Shown here one piece after another: positions 43,840 to 53,961 of a stretch of DNA of 64,000 nt; position 1 is the first letter of the stretch, and the number at the start of each line of letters is the position of its first letter. Source of the DNA: the human T2T-CHM13v2.0 reference genome, Homo sapiens. Position numbers and translations under genes: made by a program. The notes under the pieces were generated by a model. It was not told where the DNA came from, ran no database searches, and was given only the letters and a program-made list of their open reading frames with translations. The stretch is from NCBI RefSeq assembly GCF_009914755.1, contig NC_060935.1; one strand, 5' to 3'.

Positions 43840-46408
43840 CTTGCCATGTTGCACGAATGGAGACTTGAGTGAATTTGAATGTTAAAAAGATACAGCCCCT
43901 TAAAATTATTTTATTGTCAAATCTTTACTCATCACCAGTTTAATCAAATCTAATGCTGTACTAACTTGCTTCAGAACTTTGTGTTAAACAACCAAATAAA
44001 TATAGAAGACACTGCTGGATTCCCTGTGTGTTCCTCTCCATTCCCATTCATGTCTGTCCCTCCAGAGAAGTTTCCAGTATGTATCCTAAAACATTGCTAG
44101 GATATTTTTATTCTTTTGTTGCAATCTTATCTGTACTCCAAGATAGTGAAATATATCAAACCAGTTACATCTGCTTACTATTCTTATATAAATGTTAACT
44201 TCAGAATAAATCCATACTCTGTAGCATGGCATGTTCCTTAAATATCTGTCCTCACCTGCGTTTTCAGTCCCACTCACTGCCCTTCCCCTCTGTAATAGTG
44301 AGCGGAACATGCCATTTGCACATATGTATCTCCATTCCTTTCCACGTGCTCCTCTCTTTGCCCGGAAAGACCTTGCCTCCTTGCATCTGTTTTGTTAAAT
44401 AATAATTAGATAACACTTCTGTCACAATACACATTATATCAATTACAATAAGTTTTGTTACACGTTTTACCCAAACGATTCAGAGTTTTACCCAAATGAT
44501 TCAGAGTACCTTGAATGTAACGAGTAAACTTTTTATAGGTCAATGTCTAGAGTTTGGCATATAGAATGTTATTAGCTCAACTAAAGCTAGTTTAAAAAAT
44601 GATTAATGCATAGATCAGTTGGTTGTTGATGCTGCTTGGCAGCACATGCCTAGCCCGTGAAATTGAGAAAAATTTTAATTACTTACTAAATCTGAAAATC
44701 ATGTGTCTCAGAGTCTCTGCTTCAACAACAGAAAAAGCACCTAGATAAGGGGAAAATATAAATACATTTTCTAAAAGTTGTTTCTCCCACTGAGACTTGC
44801 ATACCACTGCTGACTTCCCTCTGCGACTGTGGTATGTATGACTGACAGGCTTCAGGATACCTAAGCGCAGCCCACATTTGAAACCTGGCAGCTCAGCCTC
44901 CCCTCATCCTGCTGGGAGCTGTTACAAGCTATGAGGTGCCAGTGGGTTTTATTCCTGCCTTATTAAAATGGAGAACTAGACCCCAAAAATTAAAGCTCCC
45001 AAAACCCACAACTCAGAAAAGGAAATTGGGGTTTAGGGAGGCATATAATAGATTTCTTCACACAAATTCTAAAATTTAAAGGCCGTTTTATTACAGCCAC
45101 ATTCAAAATCTACTGTAAACTCAACTCCTTCCTCTGAAGAAAAAAAAAATACCATTTCTAAGAAATCATAGGTCATAGACTTCCTAGGAAAAGGTAGAAG
45201 TCTGTTTCTCTCCAGGTAACGATTCTCCCAAATACGGCTATCTCTGCATGGGAGATAGCCCCCACCTCTCATTTGCTAAATCGGGCAGCCGGTTCCTGCA
45301 CACAGCCTTGCTTCTCCATCACCTCCCAGTGCTAATTGCTTCTCTAGGATGTGTTGAGAAGCTGGAGTGGGAGGAGCTGGGCAGCATCCTGAGGTAATTC
45401 CTGAGGGCTCTTTTCCTGTACTCATTATTCCTGTCTGACACTGTCAGCCTCCAGGTTTCTTCAGAGCACCTCAGGTCAGTCATGCTAGAAGATGGCATCA
45501 TGAGCCACCTGCCTTCTGAATGATATAATGGGAGGTTAATTCCCAGGCACAGTGCCTGGGGAAGCCAGAGAGTGTGCAAGGGAGACTGGTAATTCCCAGG
45601 TAGATCTGTGTCAGCTGTCTTGCCCTAATTACTGAAAGCAGACAGAAGCCCTCTAGGTGAGTAGACCCAGTAGGACGCAGGCTGCCTAGGAAGTTTTCAC
45701 TAGAGATCAAGCCAGAGGAGAGTGCAGAGACCTCATGGGAAGCTTTGCCTGGAATGAACCAAGGGTTCATAAAATAGGCCACTGGGTAGGTTTTCTTTTG
45801 TGAACCTCAGAATGCCTGACCCAGGGCTCAAGGCTTATTCAGCAATCATTCAGTGTCACATGACTTGGCTCATAGGCTGAGAACAGAAATGTCTTTACAG
45901 AGGGTAATATAAGAAAATTTGACTTGCTAAAGCAATAGCTAAGTTAAGGGTAGCAACAAGTACCTGAAACACCCCTAATATATGCATTTTTAAATAAAAG
46001 CTCTCTCACCACACACACACAGAGCAATAAACTAATTTCCTTTTTTTTTACTGGAAAAGAGCCTATGCAAACGTAACAAGTATGAGACACACTGACTCTC
46101 TAAAGAGATCAGAAATCATCTAGAAGGACCATCTCTGCGAGACATTTCTACACTGGAATGCACATTGTTCCAAGACTGTTTTAACTCTTCCATGTGATCA
46201 TGCCTGTTTCCTCAAATAAATGGCAACACTCTCAGCTAGATCGTTATTTGTCTCATCTACTTTTGCAAAGTCCACAGGGTCTAGTAAAGTGACAGGCAAA
46301 ATAAGGTGCTAAGTCAGCGTTCCTGGAGAGAAAAGAAATAAGGGGGTGAAGAAAACAAAGGCAGGATGGAGGCAGGGAAGGAGATAGGGAGGAAAATTAG
46401 AAGGTGAT

Positions 46409-46801
46409 TGTCAGACCTCTGAGCCCAAGCTAAGCCATCCCCTGTGACCTGCACGTATACATCCAGATGGCCTGAAGTAACAGAAGAATGACAAAAGAAG
46501 TGAAAATAGCTTGTTCCTGCCTTAACTGAGGACATTACCTTGTGAAATTCCTTTGCCTGGCTCATCCTGGCTCAAAAGCTCCCCCACTGAGCACCTTGTG
46601 ACCCCCCCACCCTGCCCACCGAGAACAACCCCCTTTGACTGTAATTTTCCTTTACCTACCCAAATCTTATAAAATGTCCCCACCCCATCTCCCTTTGCTG
46701 ACTCTTTTCAGACTCAGCCCGCCTGCACCCAGGTGAAATAAACAGCCTTGTTGCTCACACAAAGCCTGTTTGGTGGTCTCTTCACATGGACACAAGTGAA
46801 A
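46409..46801 (+). promoter_or_regulatory. 5' LTR7
   Basis: tgtcagacctctgagcccaagctaagcc; TATAAAA 46668, AATAAA 46737, CACCC boxes. Confidence 0.93.
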
Positions 46802-46804
46802 TTT

Positions 46805-46822
46805 TGGCGCCATGGCTGGGAT
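46805..46822 (+). other. tRNA-His primer binding site (degenerate)
   Basis: tggcgccatggctgggat versus tggtgccgtgactcggat, 4 mismatches. Confidence 0.85.
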
Positions 46823-48338
46823 CAGGGGACCTCCCTTGGGAGATCAATCCCCTCTCCTCCTACTCTTTGCTCTGAGAGAAAGATCCACCTATGACCTCTG
46901 GTCCTCAGACTAACCAGCCCAAGGAACATCTCACCAATTTTAAATCTAGTAAGCAACCTTTTTTTTACTCTCTTCTCCAACCTCTCTCACTATCCCTCAA
47001 CCTCTTTCTCCTTTTAATCTTAGTGCCACACTTCAGTCTCTCCCTTCTCTTAATTTCAGTTCCTTTCCTTTTCGGGTAGAGACAAAGGAGAGGCATTTTA
47101 TCCATGGACTCAAAACTCTGGTGCCGGTCACGGACTCCAGAAGGCAGCCTTCCCTTGGTGTTTAATCATTGCAGGGACACCTGCCTGATTATTCACCCAC
47201 GTTTCAGAGGTGTCTGACCACGTGGAGACACCTGCCTTGGTCCTTCACCCTTAGCAGAAAGTACTGCTTCTCTGGTGGGGAGGAACCCCCGACCCCTTCT
47301 CTCCGTGTCTCTACCCCTTCTCCACTTTCCTGGGGGGCAAGCACCCCCCAACCCCTTCTCTCCGTGTCTCTACTCTCTTTTCTCTGGGCTTGCCTCCTTC
47401 ACTATGGGCAGCCTTCCACCCTCCATTCCTCCTTCTCCCTTAGCCTGTGTTCTCAAGAACTTAAAACCTCTTCAACTCACATCTGACCTAAAACCTGAAC
47501 ACCTTATTTTCTTCTACAATGCTGCTTGACCCCAATACAAACTCGACAGTGGTTCCAAATAGCCAGAAAATGCCACTTTCAATTTTTCCATCCTACAAGA
47601 TCTAGATAATTATTGCCGTAAAATGGGCAAACGGTCTGAGGTGCCTGACGTCCAGGCATTCTTTTATACATTGTTCCCTCTGTAGTCTCTGTTCCCAATG
47701 CGACTCATCCCAAATCCTCCTTCTTTCCCTCCCACCTGTCCTCTCAGTCCCAACCCCAAGTGTGGCTGAGTCTTTCTAATCTTCCTTTTCTACAGACCCA
47801 TCTGACCTCTCCCCTCCTCCCCAGGCTGCTCCCCGCCAGGCCGAGCCAGGTCCCAATTCTTCCTCAGCCTCTGCTCCACCACCCTATAATCCTTTAATCA
47901 CCTCCCCTCCTCACACCCGGTCTGGCTTACAGTTTCATTCTGCGACTAGCCCTCCCCCACCTGCCCAGCAATTTCCTCTTAAAAAGATGGCTGGAGCTAA
48001 AGGCATAGTCAAGGCTAATGCTTCTGTTTCTTTATCTGACCTCTCCCAAAATCAGTTAGCATTTAGGCTCTTTTTCATCGAATATAAAAACCCAGCCCAG
48101 TTTGTGGCTCGTTTGGCAGCAACCCTGAGATGCTTTACAGCCCTAGACCCTGAAAGGTCAGAAGGCCGTCTTATTCTCAACATGCATTTTATTTTATTAC
48201 CCAATCTGCTCCCGACATTAAATAAAGCTCCAAAAATTAAATTCCGGCCCCCAAACCCCACAACAGGACTTAATTAAACTCACCTTAAAGGTGTACAATG
48301 TTAGGGTAGAGGCAGCCAAGTAGCAACATATTTCTGAG

Positions 48339-48650
48339 TTGCAATTCCTTGCCTCCACTGTGAGACAAACCCCAGCCATATCTCCAGCACAGAAGAACTT
48401 CCAAATGCCTGAACTGCGGCGGCCAGGCATTCCTCCAGGCCTGCGTCCCCCAGGAGCTTGCTACAAGTGCCGGAAATCTGGCCACTGGGCCAAGGAATGC
48501 CCGCAGCCCGGGATTCCTCCTAAGCCATGTCCCATCTGTGCAGGACCCCACTGGAAATTGGACTGTTCAACTCACCTGGCAGCCACTCCCAGAGCCCCTG
48601 GAACTCTGGCCCAAGGCTCTCTGACTCCTTCCCAGATCTTCTTGGCTTAG
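48339..48650 (+). pseudogene. gag: HERV-H gag nucleocapsid remnant
   Basis: Zinc knuckles CYKCRKSGHWAKEC and CPICAGPHWKLDC. Confidence 0.88.
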
Positions 48651-48713
48651 CGGCTGACGATCGACGCTGCCTGATTGCCTCGGAAGCTTCCTGGACCATC
48701 ACAGATGCTTTAG

Positions 48714-51620
48714 GTGACTCTCACAGTGGAGGTCAAGTCCGTCCCCTTCTTAATCAATACGAAGGCTACCCACTCCACATTACCTTCTTTTCAAGGGCCT
48801 GTTTCCTTTGCCTCCATAACTGTTGCGGGTATTGACGGCCAGGCTTCTAAACCTCTTAAAACTCCCCAACTCTGGTGTCAGCTTAGACAATACTCTTTTA
48901 AGCACTCCTTTTAGTTATCTCCACCTGCCCAGTTCCCTTATTAGGCCGAGACACTTTAACTAAATTATCTGCTTCCCTGATTATTCCTGGGCTACAGCCA
49001 CACCTCACTGCCACCTTTTCCCCCAGTTCAAAGCCTCCTTTACATTTTCCCCTTGTATCTCCCCACCTTAACCCACAAGTATAGGACACCTCTACTCCCT
49101 CCTTGGTGACTGATCATGCACCCTTTACCATCTCATTAAAACCTAATCACCTTTACCCCACTCAAGGCCAATATCCCATCCCGCAGCACGCTTTAAAAGG
49201 ATTAAAGCTTTGTTATCACTGGCCTGCTACAGCATGGTCTTTTACAGCCTAAAACTCTCCTTACAATTCCCCCATTTTACCTGTCCTAAAACCAGACAAG
49301 CCTTACAGGTTAGTTCAGGATCTGCCCCTTATCAACCAAATTGTTTTCCCTATCCACCCCATGGTGCCAAACCCATATACTCTCCTATCCTCAATACCTC
49401 TCTCCACAACCCGTTATTCTGTTCTGGATCTCAAACATGCTTTCTTTACTATTCTTTTGCACCCTTCATCCCAGCCTCTCTTTGCTTTCACTTGTACTGA
49501 CCCTGACACCCATCAGGCTTAGCAAATTACCTAGGCTGTACTGCTGCAAGGCTACACAGACAGCTCCCATTACTTCAGTCAAGCCCAAATTTCTTCCTCA
49601 TCTGTTACCTATCTCGGCATAATTCTCATAAAAACACATGTGCTCTCCCTGCAGATCGTGTCTGACTGATCTCTCAAACCCCAACACCTTCTACAAAACA
49701 CAACTCCTTTCCTTCCTAGGCATGGTTGGATACTTTCAACTTTAGATACCTGGTTTTGCCATCGTAATAAAACCATTACATAAACTCACAAAAGGAAACC
49801 TAGCTGACCCCATAGATCCTAAATCCTTTCCCCACTCCTCTTTCTGTTGCTTGAAAACAGCTTTAGAGACTGCCCTCACCCTAGCTCTCCCTGACTTATC
49901 CCAACACTTCATTACCCACAGCTGAAGTGCAGGGCTGTGCAGGCAGAATTCTTACACAAGGACTGGGACCATGCCCTGTAGCCTTTTTATCCTAGGCAAA
50001 ACTTGACCTTACTCTTTTGCCTAGCCCTCAATTCTGCGTGCAGCCGCTGCCGCCCTAATACTTTTAGAGGCCCTTAAAATCACAAACTGTGCTCAACTTA
50101 CTCTCTACAGTTCTCGTAACTTCCAAAATCTATTTTCTTCCTCACACCTGACACATATACTTTCTGCTCCCCCGGCTCCTTCAGCTGTACTCACTCTTTG
50201 TTGAGTCTCCCACAATTACCATTGTTCCTGGCCTGGACTTCAATCCGGCCTCCCACATTATTCCTGATACCACACCTGACTCCCATGACTGTATCTCTCT
50301 GATCCACCTGACATTCCCTCCATATCCCCATATTCTTTCATGTTCCTCACCCTGAACACACTTGGTTTATTGATGGCAGTTCCACCAGGCCTAATCGCCA
50401 CTCACCAGCAAAGGCAGGCTATGCTATAGTATCTTCCACATCTATCATTGAAGCTACCACTCTGCCCCACTCCACTACCTCTCAGCAAGCTGAACTCATT
50501 GCCTTAAGTCAAGCCCTCACTCTTGCAAAAGGACTACACATCAATATTTATACTGACTCTAAATATGCTTTCCATATCCTGCACCACCATGCAAGAGGTT
50601 TCCTCACTACAGAAGGGTCCTCTATCATTAATGCCTCTTTAATAAAAACGCTTCTCAAAGCCGCTTTACTTCCAAAGGAAGCTAGAGTCATTCACTGCAA
50701 AGGACATCAAAAGGCACCAGATCCCATTGCTCAGGACAATGCTTATGCCGGTAAGATAGCTAAAAAAGCAGCTAGTGTTCCAACTTATATCCCTCACTTT
50801 CAGTTTTTTTCCTTCTCATCTGGCCACTCCCACATACTCCCCCACTGAAACTTCCACCTATCAATCTCTTCCCACACAAGGCAAATGGTTCTTAGACCAA
50901 GGAAAATATCTCCTTCCAGCCTCACAGGCCCATTCTATTCTGTCGTCATTTCATAACCTCTTCCATGTAGGTTACAAGCCACTAGTCCGTCTCTTAGAAT
51001 CTCTCATTTCCTTTCCATCATGAAAATCTGTCCTCAAGGAAATCACTTCTCAGTGCTCCATCTGCAATTCTACTACTCCTCAGGGATTATTCAGGCCCCC
51101 TCCCTTCCCTACACATCAAGCTCTGGGATTTGCCCCCACCCAGGACTGGCAAATTGACTTTATGCAACATACCCTGAGTCAGGAAACTAAAATACCTCTT
51201 GGTCTGGGTAGACACTTTCACTGGATAGGTAGAGGCCTTTCCCACAGGGTCTGAAAAGGCCACCACGGTCATTTCTGCCCTTCTGTCTGACATAATTCCT
51301 CGGTTTGGCCTTCTCACTTCTATACAGTCCTATAACAGACTGGCCTTTACTAGTCAAATCACCCAAGCAGTTTCTCAGGCTCTTGGTATTCAGTGGAAAC
51401 TTCCTACCCCTTACCATCCTCAATCTTCAGGAAAGGCAGAACAGACTAATGGTCTTTTAAAGACACACCTCACCAAGCCCAGCCTCCAACTTAAAAAGGA
51501 CTGGACAGTACTTTTACCTCTTTCCCTTCTCATAATTCAGGCCTGTCCTCGGAATGCTACAAAGTACAGCCCATTTAAGCTCCTGTATAGACCCTCCTTT
51601 TTATTAGGCCCCAACCTCAT
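48714..51620 (+). pseudogene. pol: HERV-H pro-pol remnant (protease, RT, RNase H, integrase)
   Basis: FLINTKATHSTL (active-site DTG lost), YRLVQDL ~49304, VLDLKHAFF ~49420, WFIDGSS 50363, WQIDF 51147; multiple frameshifts and stops. Confidence 0.88.
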
Positions 51621-52217
51621 TCCAGACACCAGACCAACTTGGACTGTGCCCCAAAAAACTTGTCATCCCTACTGTCTTCTGTCTAGCCATACTTCTATTC
51701 ACTGCTCTCAACTACTCATAAATGCCCTGCTCTTGTTTACACTGCCCATTTACACTGTTTCTCCAAGCCTTCACAGCTGACATCTCCTGGTCCTATCCCC
51801 AAACCGCCACTCTAAAGTCCCTCTTAAAGTAAATAATCTTTGCTGGCAGGGCTATGCTGAACCTCCTTAGGCACTCTGGTTAGATGTCCTAGGTCCTCCC
51901 AATTCTTAGTCCTTTAATACCTGTTTTTCTCCTTGTCTTATTCCGTTTAGTTTTTCAATTCATACAAAACCGCATCCAGGCCATCACCAATAATTCTATA
52001 CGACAAATATTTCTTCTAACAACCCCACAATATCACCCCTTACCACAAAATCTTCCTTCAGCTTAATCTCTCCCACTCTAGGTTCCCACGCCGCCCCTAA
52101 TCCCGCTTGAAGCAGCCCTGAGAAACATCGCCCATTATCTCTCCATACCACCCCAAAAAAATTTTCACCGCCCCAACACTTCGCTATTTTATTTTTCTTA
52201 TTAATAGAAGACAGGAA

Positions 52218-52634
52218 TGTCAGGTGTCTGAGCCAAAGCTAAGCCATCACATCCCCTGTGACCTGCACATAAACATCCAGATGGCCAGTTCCTGCCTTAA
52301 CTGATGACATTCCACCACAAAAGAAGTGAAAATGGCCTGTTCCTGCCTAAACTGATGACATTACCTTGTGAAATTCCTTTTCCTGGCTCATCCTGGCTCA
52401 AAAGCTCCCCCACTGAACACCTTGTGACCCCCACCCCTGCCAGCCAGAGAATAACCCCCCCGATTTGACTGTAATTTTCCTTTACCTACCCAAATCTTAT
52501 AAAACGGCCCCACCCCTGTCTCCCTTCGCTGACTCTCTTTTCGGACTCAGCCCGCCTGCACCCAGGTGAAATAAACAGCCTTGTTGCTCACACAAAGCCT
52601 GTTTGGTGGTCTCTTCACATGGACGCGCGTGAAA
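52218..52634 (+). promoter_or_regulatory. 3' LTR7 (U3 repeat structure differs from the 5' LTR)
   Basis: Preceded by PPT agaagacaggaa; TATAAAA 52498, AATAAA 52569. Confidence 0.93.
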
Positions 52635-53961
52635 TTTGGTGCTGTGACTTGGATCGAGGGGACCTCCCTTGGGAGATCAATCCCCTCTCCTCCTGCTCTT
52701 TGCTCCGTGAGAAAGATCCACCTACGACCTTGTTGCTCACATAAAGCCTGTTTGGTGGTCTCTTCACATGGATGCAAGTGAAAGGGATATTTTAGAGTTT
52801 TCCATATTTATAGAAAAATTCACCGTCTGGGCCAAATGTAGGTTAAAATTTGGTTTTTACTACAGTGAATTCAAAGGTCCAGAGACCACAAAGGTAAAAA
52901 GCAGTCAACAGCTTTTTCACACAGTTCTCTTTCTACAGTCAAATTCAAATAATATTTAAATACATTCTGCCCTGCGTTTTACAACCTTCCATCTAACACT
53001 TTGTTCAATGAACAAAACAGTTCTGGGTCCAGCAGCAAATAAGCAAAAATCCTGAGCTACATTCTTCAAATAGTACATGTGAATATGTTTTTCATATGTT
53101 TAAGGTACTGATGCAGACAGCTAAAGGAATGCCAGCACCGAACTTGACCTACCTTGCTTATAACAATGAATTACCCTTTATGTAAGTATCCTTCTTTTTA
53201 TAAATAGAAAAAACTGTGACATTGTCAATGGTAGCAAATACTGTACCCATGAGAGAGGTTTGTCCCTCTGATGATTTCCTCAAAATAGGAAGGAAGAGGA
53301 AATCCATATAGGACCTTATAAGTTATTTATTCTAACATTTTAATCTTTCCCTAATGGTAAAAGGAACACTGGAGAAACTCAACCTAAAGCTACAAGATCC
53401 TTATCTAAGTCCCTCCCACTTTGTTTCTATTTCTGTTTCTGTCTTTCTCTGGGGCATGATTGTACGTATGCCTACTCATGCACTCATGCACCTACGTACA
53501 CATGCACTTTCCACTGGAAGGTGAAGGAAAGGAAAAGAGTGTATTGTATAATTCCTAGAAAGCTAATTTTATTTTTAAGGATAAAAAGTTTTACTAGAAA
53601 GAATAAGGTGACAGAATTGCTTTTTGAAATATGTATTGCTTTTTCCCCTAGAATTTACTTTTTTGTCAGTCTTTCATCTAGCTCCTTGTAGCAATCTAAG
53701 AATATTCTTCTCTGATTCTTGTTCCAGTTAAGATGAAATAACCACCCTCTACTCTGTTTTTCTCACAGAGTATAGCTGCAAAACCTGGATAGAATGCATA
53801 GATCAACTAGTTGAAGGCTCTGAAATATAATTAGTAACAGGAAGGTTGAGGAAGAAGACCAGAATTCAAAGTTCCACCAAACTGGTTACATTTTTTTTCT
53901 GCCTGTCTTCCTGCTGCCTGGCTCCAGATGGAGGTGCAGTTGTAGAAATATACAGCAAAGG

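What the first reader, a model, noticed from the sequence alone, without database searches (positions are those of the whole stretch)
52635..52788. Second PBS, leader and duplicated U5 downstream of the 3' LTR
Seen: the 3' LTR is followed by a better-preserved His PBS (tggtgctgtgacttggat, 52637-52654) and about 75 nt of leader. At a cct microhomology (52728-52730) it jumps back into R/U5 (tgttgctcac ... caagtgaaa, ending 52783), and only then comes the TSD-like gggat. The terminal U5 shares caagtgaaa with the 5' LTR, whereas the internal U5 reads cgcgtgaaa. Inference: the 3' LTR is really a 5' LTR plus leader from another HERV-H grafted into the original 3' LTR, or an aberrant strand-transfer product. 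It would act as a promoter facing host DNA.
Basis: partly seen in the sequence, partly recalled or inferred. Interest (0 to 1): 0.7.

Follow-up and report, generated by a model that had tools for sequence, protein, structure and literature searches.

The report
Rearranged 3' end of HERV-H provirus
An old endogenous retrovirus in a human chromosome 11 gene desert has a patched 3' end, in which a "front-end" piece of another copy of the same virus family sits inside its original rear repeat; it is a rare recombination scar, not a new kind of element.

Summary
A HERV-H provirus spans 46409-52783. Its complete downstream LTR (52218-52634) is followed by a tRNA-His-type PBS (52637-52654), 76 nt of leader (to 52730), a CCT microhomology, and a second copy of the last 53-56 nt of R/U5 (to 52783). 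Only then comes GGGAT, which matches the 5' flank GTGAT at 4 of 5 positions.

The junction is unique in T2T-CHM13. None of the 39 other best-scoring int-LTR ends runs on into a PBS.

The two LTRs do not look like sisters:
- They carry different family-level U3 forms, whereas at least 13 other proviruses pair like with like.
- Their K2P distance is 0.10, against 0.043-0.046 in 3 control proviruses.
- The downstream LTR keeps 6 of 6 old CpGs; the 5' LTR keeps 1 of 6.

The terminal U5 stub shares its variant with the 5' LTR. It most likely arrived through templated repair that ended by microhomology.

One result argues against this. Both leaders share a variant found in only 3 of 404 leaders genome-wide. 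No donor was found (best match 93%), so the event is old. The promoter idea is generic and untested. Interest is low to moderate.

The parts
46404..46408 (+). 5' copy of the target-site duplication (GTGAT)
   Evidence: It matches GGGAT at 52784-52788 at 4 of 5 positions. Three of 3 control proviruses have perfect 5-bp duplications at the same LTR borders.
46409..46801 (+). 5' LTR (393 bp). U3 is the 'A-form': one copy of the ~50-bp unit, preceded by CCTGAAGTAAC. U5 ends ACAAGTGAAA.
   Evidence: It has 14 singleton changes (24 other copies have 3-9) and retains 1 of 6 old CpGs.
46804..46897 (+). Original PBS (decayed, no match within 3 mismatches of the family word) and the first 76 nt of leader. 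Carries the rare C at 46854.
46898..52217 (+). Rest of the leader and the HERV-H internal region, ending in the polypurine tract ...AGAAGACAGGAA
   Evidence: The last 1.1 kb aligns with 19 other HERV-H 3' ends.
52218..52634 (+). Complete downstream LTR (417 bp). U3 is the 'B-form'. TATAAAA lies at 52498-52504 and AATAAA at 52570-52575. U5 ends GCGCGTGAAA.
   Evidence: It retains 6 of 6 old CpGs.
52637..52654 (+). Second primer-binding site (TGGTGCTGTGACTTGGAT)
   Evidence: 2 mismatches to the family word. Both are C-to-T at CpG positions.
52655..52730 (+). Second leader copy (76 nt), truncated about 50 nt before the splice-donor-like CAG|GTAAGC seen in relatives. Carries the rare C at 52687.
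   Evidence: (D3, 95% to 46824-46897).
52728..52730 (+). Junction microhomology CCT (equivalent to 52579-52581 in R, 3 nt after AATAAACAG)
   Evidence: The junction 28-mer is unique in the genome within 3 mismatches.
52731..52783 (+). Terminal stub of the original 3' LTR: the last ~11 nt of R plus U5, ending GCAAGTGAAA. It has no poly(A) signal of its own.
   Evidence: 3 transitions in 55 nt versus the 5' LTR; 3 transitions and 1 transversion versus the downstream LTR.
52784..52788 (+). 3' copy of the target-site duplication (GGGAT)

Best explanation
An old HERV-H provirus integrated here with a 5-bp target duplication. Its LTRs were of the U3 'A-form' and had a ...CAAGTGAAA U5 end.

Later, but still tens of millions of years ago, nearly all of its 3' LTR was replaced. 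The replacement is a contiguous LTR-PBS-leader segment, which is the arrangement found only at the 5' end of a provirus. It comes from a different HERV-H lineage with the U3 'B-form' and a ...GCGCGTGAAA U5 end.

The left join lies in homologous sequence and cannot be seen. The right join is non-homologous. Leader position 76 is fused to R through a 3-nt CCT overlap, 3 nt after AATAAACAG. This leaves the last 53 nt of the original 3' LTR and the target duplication in place.

The most likely route (inferred, not shown) is repair of a break in the 3' LTR by copying from the 5' end of another HERV-H. Synthesis overshot the end of LTR homology into the donor's PBS and leader, and the repair was closed by microhomology. 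A second provirus nested in the 3' LTR and then almost entirely deleted would give the same end product.

The structure is a scar. It leaves a complete LTR promoter followed by 149 bp of U5-PBS-leader-R'/U5 before host DNA. It adds no known signal.
For: **Structure and borders.** The target duplication is 4 of 5 with the terminal stub, and 3 of 3 controls are perfect.

**The two LTRs differ in a family-level U3 block.**
- All 13 nearest relatives of the 5' LTR have the A-form. All 11 nearest relatives of the downstream LTR have the B-form.
- The A-form pattern has 128 exact genome hits. Among the first 100 listed there are 13 same-strand pairs 4.5-6.0 kb apart, so A/A proviruses are usual. This provirus contributes only its 5' LTR.
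- Descent of both forms from a long form is excluded. Of 9 LTRs from 7 loci carrying both blocks, the 5 closest to the chr1 relative share two marker words. Neither LTR here has them.

**Divergence.**
- LTR-pair K2P is 0.101 (15 transitions, 22 transversions, 8 gap events), against 0.043-0.046 in 3 control proviruses. It is 0.084 outside the block.
- All 24 LTR-pair distances in part 1 of 19 of Gemmell 2019 Data Sheet 1 are 0.068 or less.
- For the 5' LTR, the downstream LTR ranks only 26th of 39 non-self hits.

**Different decay histories.**
- Old CpGs retained: 1 of 6 versus 6 of 6 (controls 2/2, 2/2, 2/3; 24 background LTRs 0-5). With PBS and leader included: 2 of 12 versus 9 of 12.
- Singleton changes: 14 versus 6 (others 3-9).

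**U5 variant.** The terminal stub shares the A at the variable U5 dinucleotide with the 5' LTR. The downstream LTR has C.

**Rarity.**
- The junction is unique in the genome.
- 0 of 39 other scored int-LTR ends continue into a PBS.
- A pattern for int-end + LTR + PBS-start finds only this locus and one unrelated inverted duplication on chrX. Estimated sensitivity is about 0.6.

**Precedent.** Ectopic gene conversion among human LTRs, with patchwork products and tracts of 3-450 bp, is documented (PMC4921805, passages read).
Against: - **Shared rare leader variant.** The second leader shares a rare C (52687 = 46854) with the provirus's own leader. The 24-mer with C occurs 3 times in the genome (these two and chr1:98.65 Mb). 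The G version occurs 401 times. A foreign donor would carry it by chance in under 1% of cases, so a later short conversion between the two leaders (37 nt or less) must be added.
- **Two sites point the other way.** At the only two reliable diagnostic sites outside the U3 block (52364, 52411) the downstream LTR has the A-set state, although 2 of 11 B-set copies also do.
- **Weak affinity between the LTRs.** Outside the block the two LTRs are each other's second-closest sequence after correcting for branch length. Their excess of -0.0075 lies within the range of unrelated pairs, but the background copies were chosen as their nearest neighbours, which blunts this test.
- **No donor.** No donor copy exists (best 93%, many ties).
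- **Left boundary not found.** Painting of the internal region gave mixed states. A change-point at 51830 rests partly on a misaligned indel, and other copies show the same trend.
- **Weak U5 marker.** The U5 difference is a single transversion at a site that is polymorphic family-wide. The CAAG ending occurs with all U3 forms (5 A, 17 B, 7 both, 1 neither of 30).
- **Small samples.** Only 3 control proviruses, and only 6-12 CpG sites.
Confidence: 0.5

Rival explanations
1. Intra-element origin. The extra U5-PBS-leader was copied from this provirus's own 5' end. This could have happened by unequal exchange between its 5' and 3' LTRs, giving a tandem provirus that a later microhomology deletion reduced to 76 nt of leader. 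Alternatively, a replication template switch to the 5' end could have produced it. The U3 discordance then arose separately, by ectopic conversion of one LTR.
For: - The two leaders share a variant present in 3 of 404 leaders genome-wide.
- The downstream LTR has the A-set state at 52364 and 52411.
- The two LTRs show a slight mutual affinity outside the block.
- Patchy ectopic conversion of LTRs is documented (PMC4921805).
Against: - It needs at least three events: duplication, U3 conversion, and the U5 change.
- The copied U5-PBS-leader shares only 1 of about 7 private changes of the 5' copy, and K2P between them is 0.10-0.12.
- CpG retention is 9 of 12 versus 2 of 12.
- No intact tandem HERV-H was picked up by the int-end + LTR + PBS pattern, which has about 0.6 sensitivity.
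Confidence: 0.22
2. Reverse-transcription error. Minus-strand strong-stop DNA copied U5 and about 11-14 nt of R. It then jumped prematurely, through CCT, into the leader of a co-packaged RNA. From there it copied leader-PBS-U5-R and made the normal first transfer. The oddity was therefore present at integration.
For: - The junction lies in R, a few nt from the poly(A) signal, with microhomology. The terminal U5 abuts the target duplication as an integrase-processed end should.
- Premature and aberrant first-strand transfers with junctions in U5 or R are documented for HIV-1: 61 of 395 deleted proviruses (PMC12657518, passages read).
- The event is old. No part of the locus looks recent.
Against: - Both U3 regions are copied from one minus-strand template, so A-form and B-form LTRs in one provirus cannot come from reverse transcription alone (established mechanism).
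- The plus-strand strong-stop copy should have given the 5' end the same U5-PBS-leader-R'/U5 duplication, yet the 5' end is normal.
- Unequal CpG decay and unequal divergence of the two LTRs.
Confidence: 0.12
3. Assembly artefact. The 149-bp repeat is a mis-join in T2T-CHM13.
For: None from the calls. It simply could not be tested with reads.
Against: The three R/U5 copies differ from one another by 3-4 substitutions. The second PBS-leader differs from the first by 9 substitutions and 2 indels. The extra piece is therefore not a collapsed or duplicated read of the same sequence. The whole structure also fits well inside single long reads (inference).
Confidence: 0.02

Closest known systems
Ectopic (non-allelic) gene conversion between LTRs of human endogenous retroviruses (Trombetta et al. 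2016, PMC4921805)
   Same: One LTR carries sequence of another family member while its flanks and target duplication stay put. The marker pattern is a patchwork. Donors can lie anywhere in the genome.
   Different: Reported tracts stay inside LTR homology (maximum 14-450 bp, mean 99 bp). Here the tract spans at least 460 bp, runs out of the LTR into the PBS and leader, and ends in a microhomology join that leaves a 149-bp direct repeat. No donor was identified.
Tandem proviruses sharing a central LTR, formed by unequal LTR-LTR exchange (described for HERV-K(HML-2); recalled, not read here)
   Same: An LTR is preceded by the internal 3' end and followed by PBS and leader.
   Different: Only 76 nt of the 'second provirus' and 53 nt of the third LTR exist. 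The central LTR is of a different U3 form from the 5' LTR.
Premature or aberrant first-strand transfer during reverse transcription (HIV-1 defective proviruses, PMC12657518)
   Same: The junction lies in R/U5 with short homology. The product has an abnormal LTR end.
   Different: The described products are deletions with incomplete LTRs at both ends. Here there is a gain of sequence at one end only, and the two U3 regions are discordant.
Inter-subfamily recombination of LTR7 blocks (Carter et al. 2022, PMC8912925; type I/II/Ia LTRs, Gemmell et al. 2019, PMC6629862)
   Same: The U3 region around the duplicated ~50-bp unit (their blocks 2a/2b) defines lineages and has been exchanged between them.
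   Different: Those events created new replicating subfamilies, and both LTRs of each copy carry the new form. Here the mix is confined to one locus and to one end.

Membership tests
HERV-H (LTR7-HERVH) provirus | LTRs of the LTR7 group at both ends | tested here: met
   Both LTRs align end to end with dozens of genomic HERV-H LTRs at 86-93%.
HERV-H (LTR7-HERVH) provirus | Primer-binding site of the tRNA-His type just after the 5' LTR | tested here: met
   The second PBS matches the family's common 18-mer at 16 of 18 positions. The first is decayed but in place. That the word is 'His' comes from the Gemmell 2019 passage, not from a tRNA comparison here.
HERV-H (LTR7-HERVH) provirus | 5-bp target-site duplication | tested here: met
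   GTGAT / GGGAT match at 4 of 5. Three of 3 controls are perfect.
HERV-H (LTR7-HERVH) provirus | The two LTRs are sister copies from one reverse-transcription event | tested here: not met
   Different U3 forms. K2P 0.10 versus 0.043-0.046 in controls. CpG retention 1/6 versus 6/6.
Tandem provirus (LTR-int-LTR-int-LTR) | A second internal region and a complete third LTR | tested here: not met
   Only 76 nt of leader and 53-56 nt of R/U5 follow the central LTR.
Product of premature minus-strand transfer | Junction in R/U5 with short homology | tested here: met
   CCT overlap at 52728-52730 = 52579-52581.
Product of premature minus-strand transfer | Both LTR ends derive from the same strong-stop products: same U3, same abnormality | tested here: not met
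   The 5' end is normal. The U3 forms differ.
Ectopic gene conversion tract | Foreign variants in a block flanked by original sequence | tested here: inconclusive
   The right flank (terminal stub) is original-like. The left boundary was not found. Markers inside the tract are mixed.
Ectopic gene conversion tract | An identifiable donor | tested here: not met
   The best other copy is 93%, with many ties. Only 40 of 3379 candidates were scored.
Active LTR7 promoter (hESC/embryo) | Transcription initiating in the LTR; subfamily-specific motifs such as the 8-bp SOX2/3 insertion of LTR7up | not testable with these tools
   No expression data are available, and the motif letters are not given in the passages read. 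Only TATAAAA and AATAAA could be located.

The most novel reading that the evidence does not exclude
The downstream LTR-PBS-leader is a younger HERV-H front end captured into a resident older provirus while the family was still replicating, for example from unintegrated viral DNA used as a repair template. It has since stayed unmethylated in the germline: all 6 old CpGs are kept, more than in any of 30 other LTRs compared. That would mean it has worked as the locus's real promoter, pointing into host DNA.
Probability: 0.1. Interest if true: 0.55.

Novelty: new variant of a known kind. Interest (0 to 1): 0.3.

Why it matters
If the reading holds, this locus is a fossil of recombination between two HERV-H lineages at a single site. 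The repair tract overshot the LTR and was sealed by microhomology. Ectopic LTR conversion is known, but a tract that carries PBS and leader into a 3' LTR is rare: this genome holds one such junction.

There is also a practical consequence. LTR-pair dating would mislead at this locus, because the two LTRs are not sisters. RepeatMasker-style annotation would miss the 149-bp repeat.

The locus does not bear on any open question. No effect on nearby genes is indicated.

Tried and rejected
1. **Both U3 forms descend from a long-form LTR by two deletions.** Rejected. The long-form copies nearest the chr1 relative carry two marker words that are absent from both LTRs.
2. **Donor search.** The 516-nt tract gives only 92-93% matches.
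3. **Shared rare alleles between the two LTRs.** One allele at 3 or fewer of 27 copies, two at 6 or fewer. This is no more than random pairs show.
4. **Painting the 5' internal region with A-set versus B-set diagnostic sites.** States were mixed and mostly CpG-type.
5. **Branch length and private changes along the 3' internal region.** A drop near 51870 in windows was not upheld by counts of private events (8, 5, 15, 6, 10 per bin versus medians 4, 4, 5, 3, 4).
6. **Change-point scan.** It put the strongest change-point at 51830 (LR 8.2; 0 of 18 others as high). That site is a misaligned pair of indels, and other copies show the same left-greater-than-right trend. Inconclusive.
7. **CpG retention along the internal region.** Patchy.
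9. **Mapping the locus to the Gemmell/Wang HERV-H tables.** The table has identifiers only and no coordinates.
10. **Literature.** No paper in the library holds both 'HERVH' and 'RAB38'. The searches found no description of a 3' LTR followed by PBS and leader in HERV-H. Subscription journals are not covered.

Full report
**1. What is there**

The window holds one HERV-H provirus on the + strand, 46409-52783.

- **5' end.** The 5' LTR is 46409-46801. It starts TGTCAG and ends GTGAAA. A decayed PBS and the leader follow.
- **Internal region.** It ends in the usual polypurine stretch ...AGAAGACAGGAA, directly before a complete LTR at 52218-52634.
- **After the downstream LTR.** In a normal provirus host DNA would follow. 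Here the order is:
  - TT;
  - an 18-nt PBS (52637-52654), with 2 mismatches to the family's common word and the only match in the window within 3 mismatches;
  - 76 nt of leader to 52730, which is 95% identical to 46824-46897;
  - across a shared CCT (52728-52730 = 52579-52581), the last 53 nt of R/U5 again, to 52783;
  - GGGAT.
- **Target duplication.** The 5' flank is GTGAT (46404-46408).
- **Controls.** Three other proviruses for which I held both ends have perfect 5-bp duplications at exactly these LTR borders: GAAGG, CTCCA and ACAAG.

The provirus therefore truly ends at 52783, and the extra material lies inside it.

**2. Is it common?**

No.

- A 28-mer across the junction, with up to 3 mismatches allowed, hits only this locus and one normal leader that happens to fall within 3 mismatches.
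- With 52560-52800 as query, all 39 other scored matches (of 2170 candidates) stop at the junction.
- With internal end + LTR + PBS + leader (51900-52730) as query, all 39 other scored matches (of 3418 candidates) stop at the LTR end, at positions 710-745 of 831.
- A pattern requiring the internal end, an LTR of 390-420 nt and the start of the PBS finds two places: this one and a locus on chrX.
- The chrX locus is a different thing. It is a tail-to-tail inverted duplication of a HERV-H 3' end with only 7 PBS-like letters.
- The anchors of that pattern are exact in 16 of 19 3' ends (15 of those 16 within the length range) and in 20 of 25 5' ends. It should therefore catch roughly 60% of such arrangements. 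Intact tandem HERV-H proviruses would also have been caught, and none was.

**3. Are the two LTRs sisters?**

This question decides between the readings. Reverse transcription copies both U3 regions from one template (established mechanism).

*U3 form*
- The two LTRs differ in a U3 block just after ...CATCCAGATGG. The 5' LTR has the 'A-form': CCTGAAGTAAC... followed by one ~50-bp unit. The downstream LTR has the 'B-form': no CCTGAAGTAAC and two units.
- These are family-level forms. All 13 best relatives of the 5' LTR have A and all 11 best relatives of the downstream LTR have B.
- The A-form pattern has 128 exact hits in the genome. The first 100 listed include 13 same-strand pairs 4.5-6.0 kb apart, which are proviruses with A at both ends. 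Here only the 5' LTR hits.
- A third, long form with both blocks exists. It is carried by the one other copy that shares the rare leader variant (chr1:98.65 Mb). I therefore tested whether both LTRs could derive from it by separate deletions.
- Of 9 LTRs from 7 loci carrying both blocks, the 5 closest to that relative share two marker words, and 2 more have one or a variant of them. Neither LTR here has either word. That idea fails.

*Divergence*
- LTR-pair K2P is 0.101 (15 transitions, 22 transversions, 8 gap events), against 0.046, 0.045 and 0.043 in the three controls. Outside the block it is still 0.084.
- All 24 LTR-pair distances in the part of Gemmell et al.'s table that I read are 0.068 or less (part 1 of 19).
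- The downstream LTR ranks 26th among 39 non-self matches to the 5' LTR.

*Decay*
- At sites inferred to be old CpGs, the 5' LTR keeps 1 of 6 and the downstream LTR 6 of 6. The three control pairs are symmetric (2/2, 2/2, 2/3) and 24 other LTRs keep 0-5.
- With PBS and leader included, the counts are 2 of 12 versus 9 of 12 (others median 5, range 2-10).
- Singleton changes are 14 versus 6 (others 3-9).

*The terminal stub*
- It sides with the 5' LTR. It has the same A at the variable U5 dinucleotide where the downstream LTR has C. It shows 3 transitions in 55 nt against the 5' LTR, versus 3 transitions plus 1 transversion against the downstream LTR.

Taken together, the 5' LTR and the stub are the remains of the original pair. 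The complete downstream LTR with its PBS and leader has a different history.

**4. What does not fit**

- **The shared leader variant.**
  - Both leaders carry a C (46854, 52687) where 401 exact 24-mers genome-wide have G. The C version occurs only three times: these two and chr1:98.65 Mb.
  - An 18-mer adds two places, against 2 hits for the reversed control.
  - A foreign donor would rarely carry this variant. I have to assume a later short conversion between the two leaders, with a tract of 37 nt or less given the flanking differences, or else an origin of the leader from the provirus itself.
- **Diagnostic sites.** At the two reliable diagnostic sites outside the block, the downstream LTR has the A-set state. 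Two of 11 B-set copies do too. One of them, chr4:176.30 Mb, shares three further minor alleles and the CG-type U5 with it.
- **The excess test.**
  - After correcting for branch lengths, the two LTRs are each other's second-closest sequence.
  - Their 'excess' of -0.0075 lies within unrelated pairs: 17% of 276 background pairs are as low. The control sister pairs give -0.049 to -0.067.
  - The background copies were picked as nearest neighbours of these two LTRs, and the controls come from more distant sub-lineages. The test is therefore less sensitive for the pair in question.
- **The U5 marker.** The dinucleotide is polymorphic across the family (CA, AG, AA, CG). CAAG can arise from CGAG by CpG decay. 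It occurs with every U3 form: of 30 such LTRs, 5 are A, 17 B, 7 both and 1 neither.

**5. When and how**

- **Age.** No copy in the genome is closer than 93% to the 516-nt tract, and about 40 copies tie at 92-93%. Either the donor is lost, or the event is about as old as the B-form copies themselves. Private changes are spread fairly evenly over the internal 3' end and the downstream LTR. The event is not recent.
- **Left boundary.** It could not be found.
- **Right join.** This is shown directly by the sequence. Leader position 76 is fused to R through CCT, 3 nt after AATAAACAG. The overlap could have been 5 nt (CCTTG) if the donor leader had the TG variant seen in 3 of 27 copies.
- **Most likely route (inferred).**
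  - A break in the 3' LTR was repaired by copying from the 5' end of another HERV-H.
  - Synthesis ran past the end of LTR homology into the PBS and leader.
  - The end was sealed by microhomology.
  - Ectopic conversion among human LTRs, with patchwork products, is documented (PMC4921805, passages).
- **Alternative with the same end product.** A nested second provirus that was later almost wholly deleted. That needs more events.
- **Intra-element origin** (collapsed tandem or own 5' end as template). It explains the leader variant, but it needs separate events for the U3 block and the U5 site, and it does not explain the unequal decay.
- **Premature minus-strand transfer.** It explains the junction neatly, and such events are known (PMC12657518, passages). 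It predicts identical U3 regions and the same duplication at the 5' end. Neither is seen.

**6. Function**

- The downstream LTR has TATAAAA at 52498-52504 and AATAAA at 52570-52575.
- Any transcript reading on would cross U5, PBS, 76 nt of leader and the R'/U5 stub before reaching host DNA.
- The stub lacks the AATAAA.
- The leader copy stops about 50 nt short of the CAG|GTAAGC seen at the corresponding place in relatives. Its role as the family's splice donor is recalled, not tested.
- The extra 149 bp therefore adds no signal that an ordinary 3' LTR lacks.
- The annotation supplied with the finding lists no + strand transcript here.
- The full CpG retention of this LTR is the one hint that it may have been less methylated than its partner. 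Youth of the tract explains that equally well.

**7. Verdict**

The structure is real, non-random and essentially unique in this genome. It is best read as a recombination or repair scar in which a front-end piece of another HERV-H lineage replaced most of the original 3' LTR. This is a new variant of known processes: ectopic LTR conversion and microhomology joins. It has modest interest, with no evidence of function.

Noticed in passing
L085 = G000:C23:136573900-136575300 (minus strand): A HERV-H 3' end (internal end + LTR) is followed by TTTGGTG and then by an inverted partial LTR and internal region. This is a tail-to-tail inverted duplication. It was the only other exact hit of the int-end + LTR + PBS-start pattern.
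   Followed up: partly
G000:C7:77066024, 77068648, 77075281 (+): Three A-form LTRs lie in one orientation, 2.6 and 6.6 kb apart. This may be a tandem or otherwise complex HERV-H locus. It was not fetched.
   Followed up: no
window 52218-52730 versus 46409-46897: The downstream LTR keeps all 6 inferred old CpGs, more than any of 30 other LTRs compared. The 5' LTR keeps 1. Control proviruses are symmetric. Whether this reflects age or germline methylation is unresolved.
   Followed up: partly
L072 = G000:C1:98646500-98656400 (minus strand): This is the only other genomic copy with the rare leader C variant. It is a normal provirus with two 446-bp long-form LTRs (K2P 0.046) and a perfect ACAAG target duplication.
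   Followed up: partly
window 47274-47382: A tandem repeat of about 59 nt lies in the HERV-H leader. The number of units differs among genomic copies, seen as multiple offset BLAST segments.
   Followed up: no
window 46804-46821: The provirus's own PBS has decayed beyond 3 mismatches from the family word, partly by non-CpG changes. The 5' LTR also has a private 5-nt deletion near 46436.
   Followed up: no
L019 (G000:C2:116618675-116622182) and L002 (G000:C15:53519520-53522689): L019 holds two LTR matches about 830 bp apart. L002 holds two partial LTR matches. These are further rearranged HERV-H ends that I did not examine.
   Followed up: no
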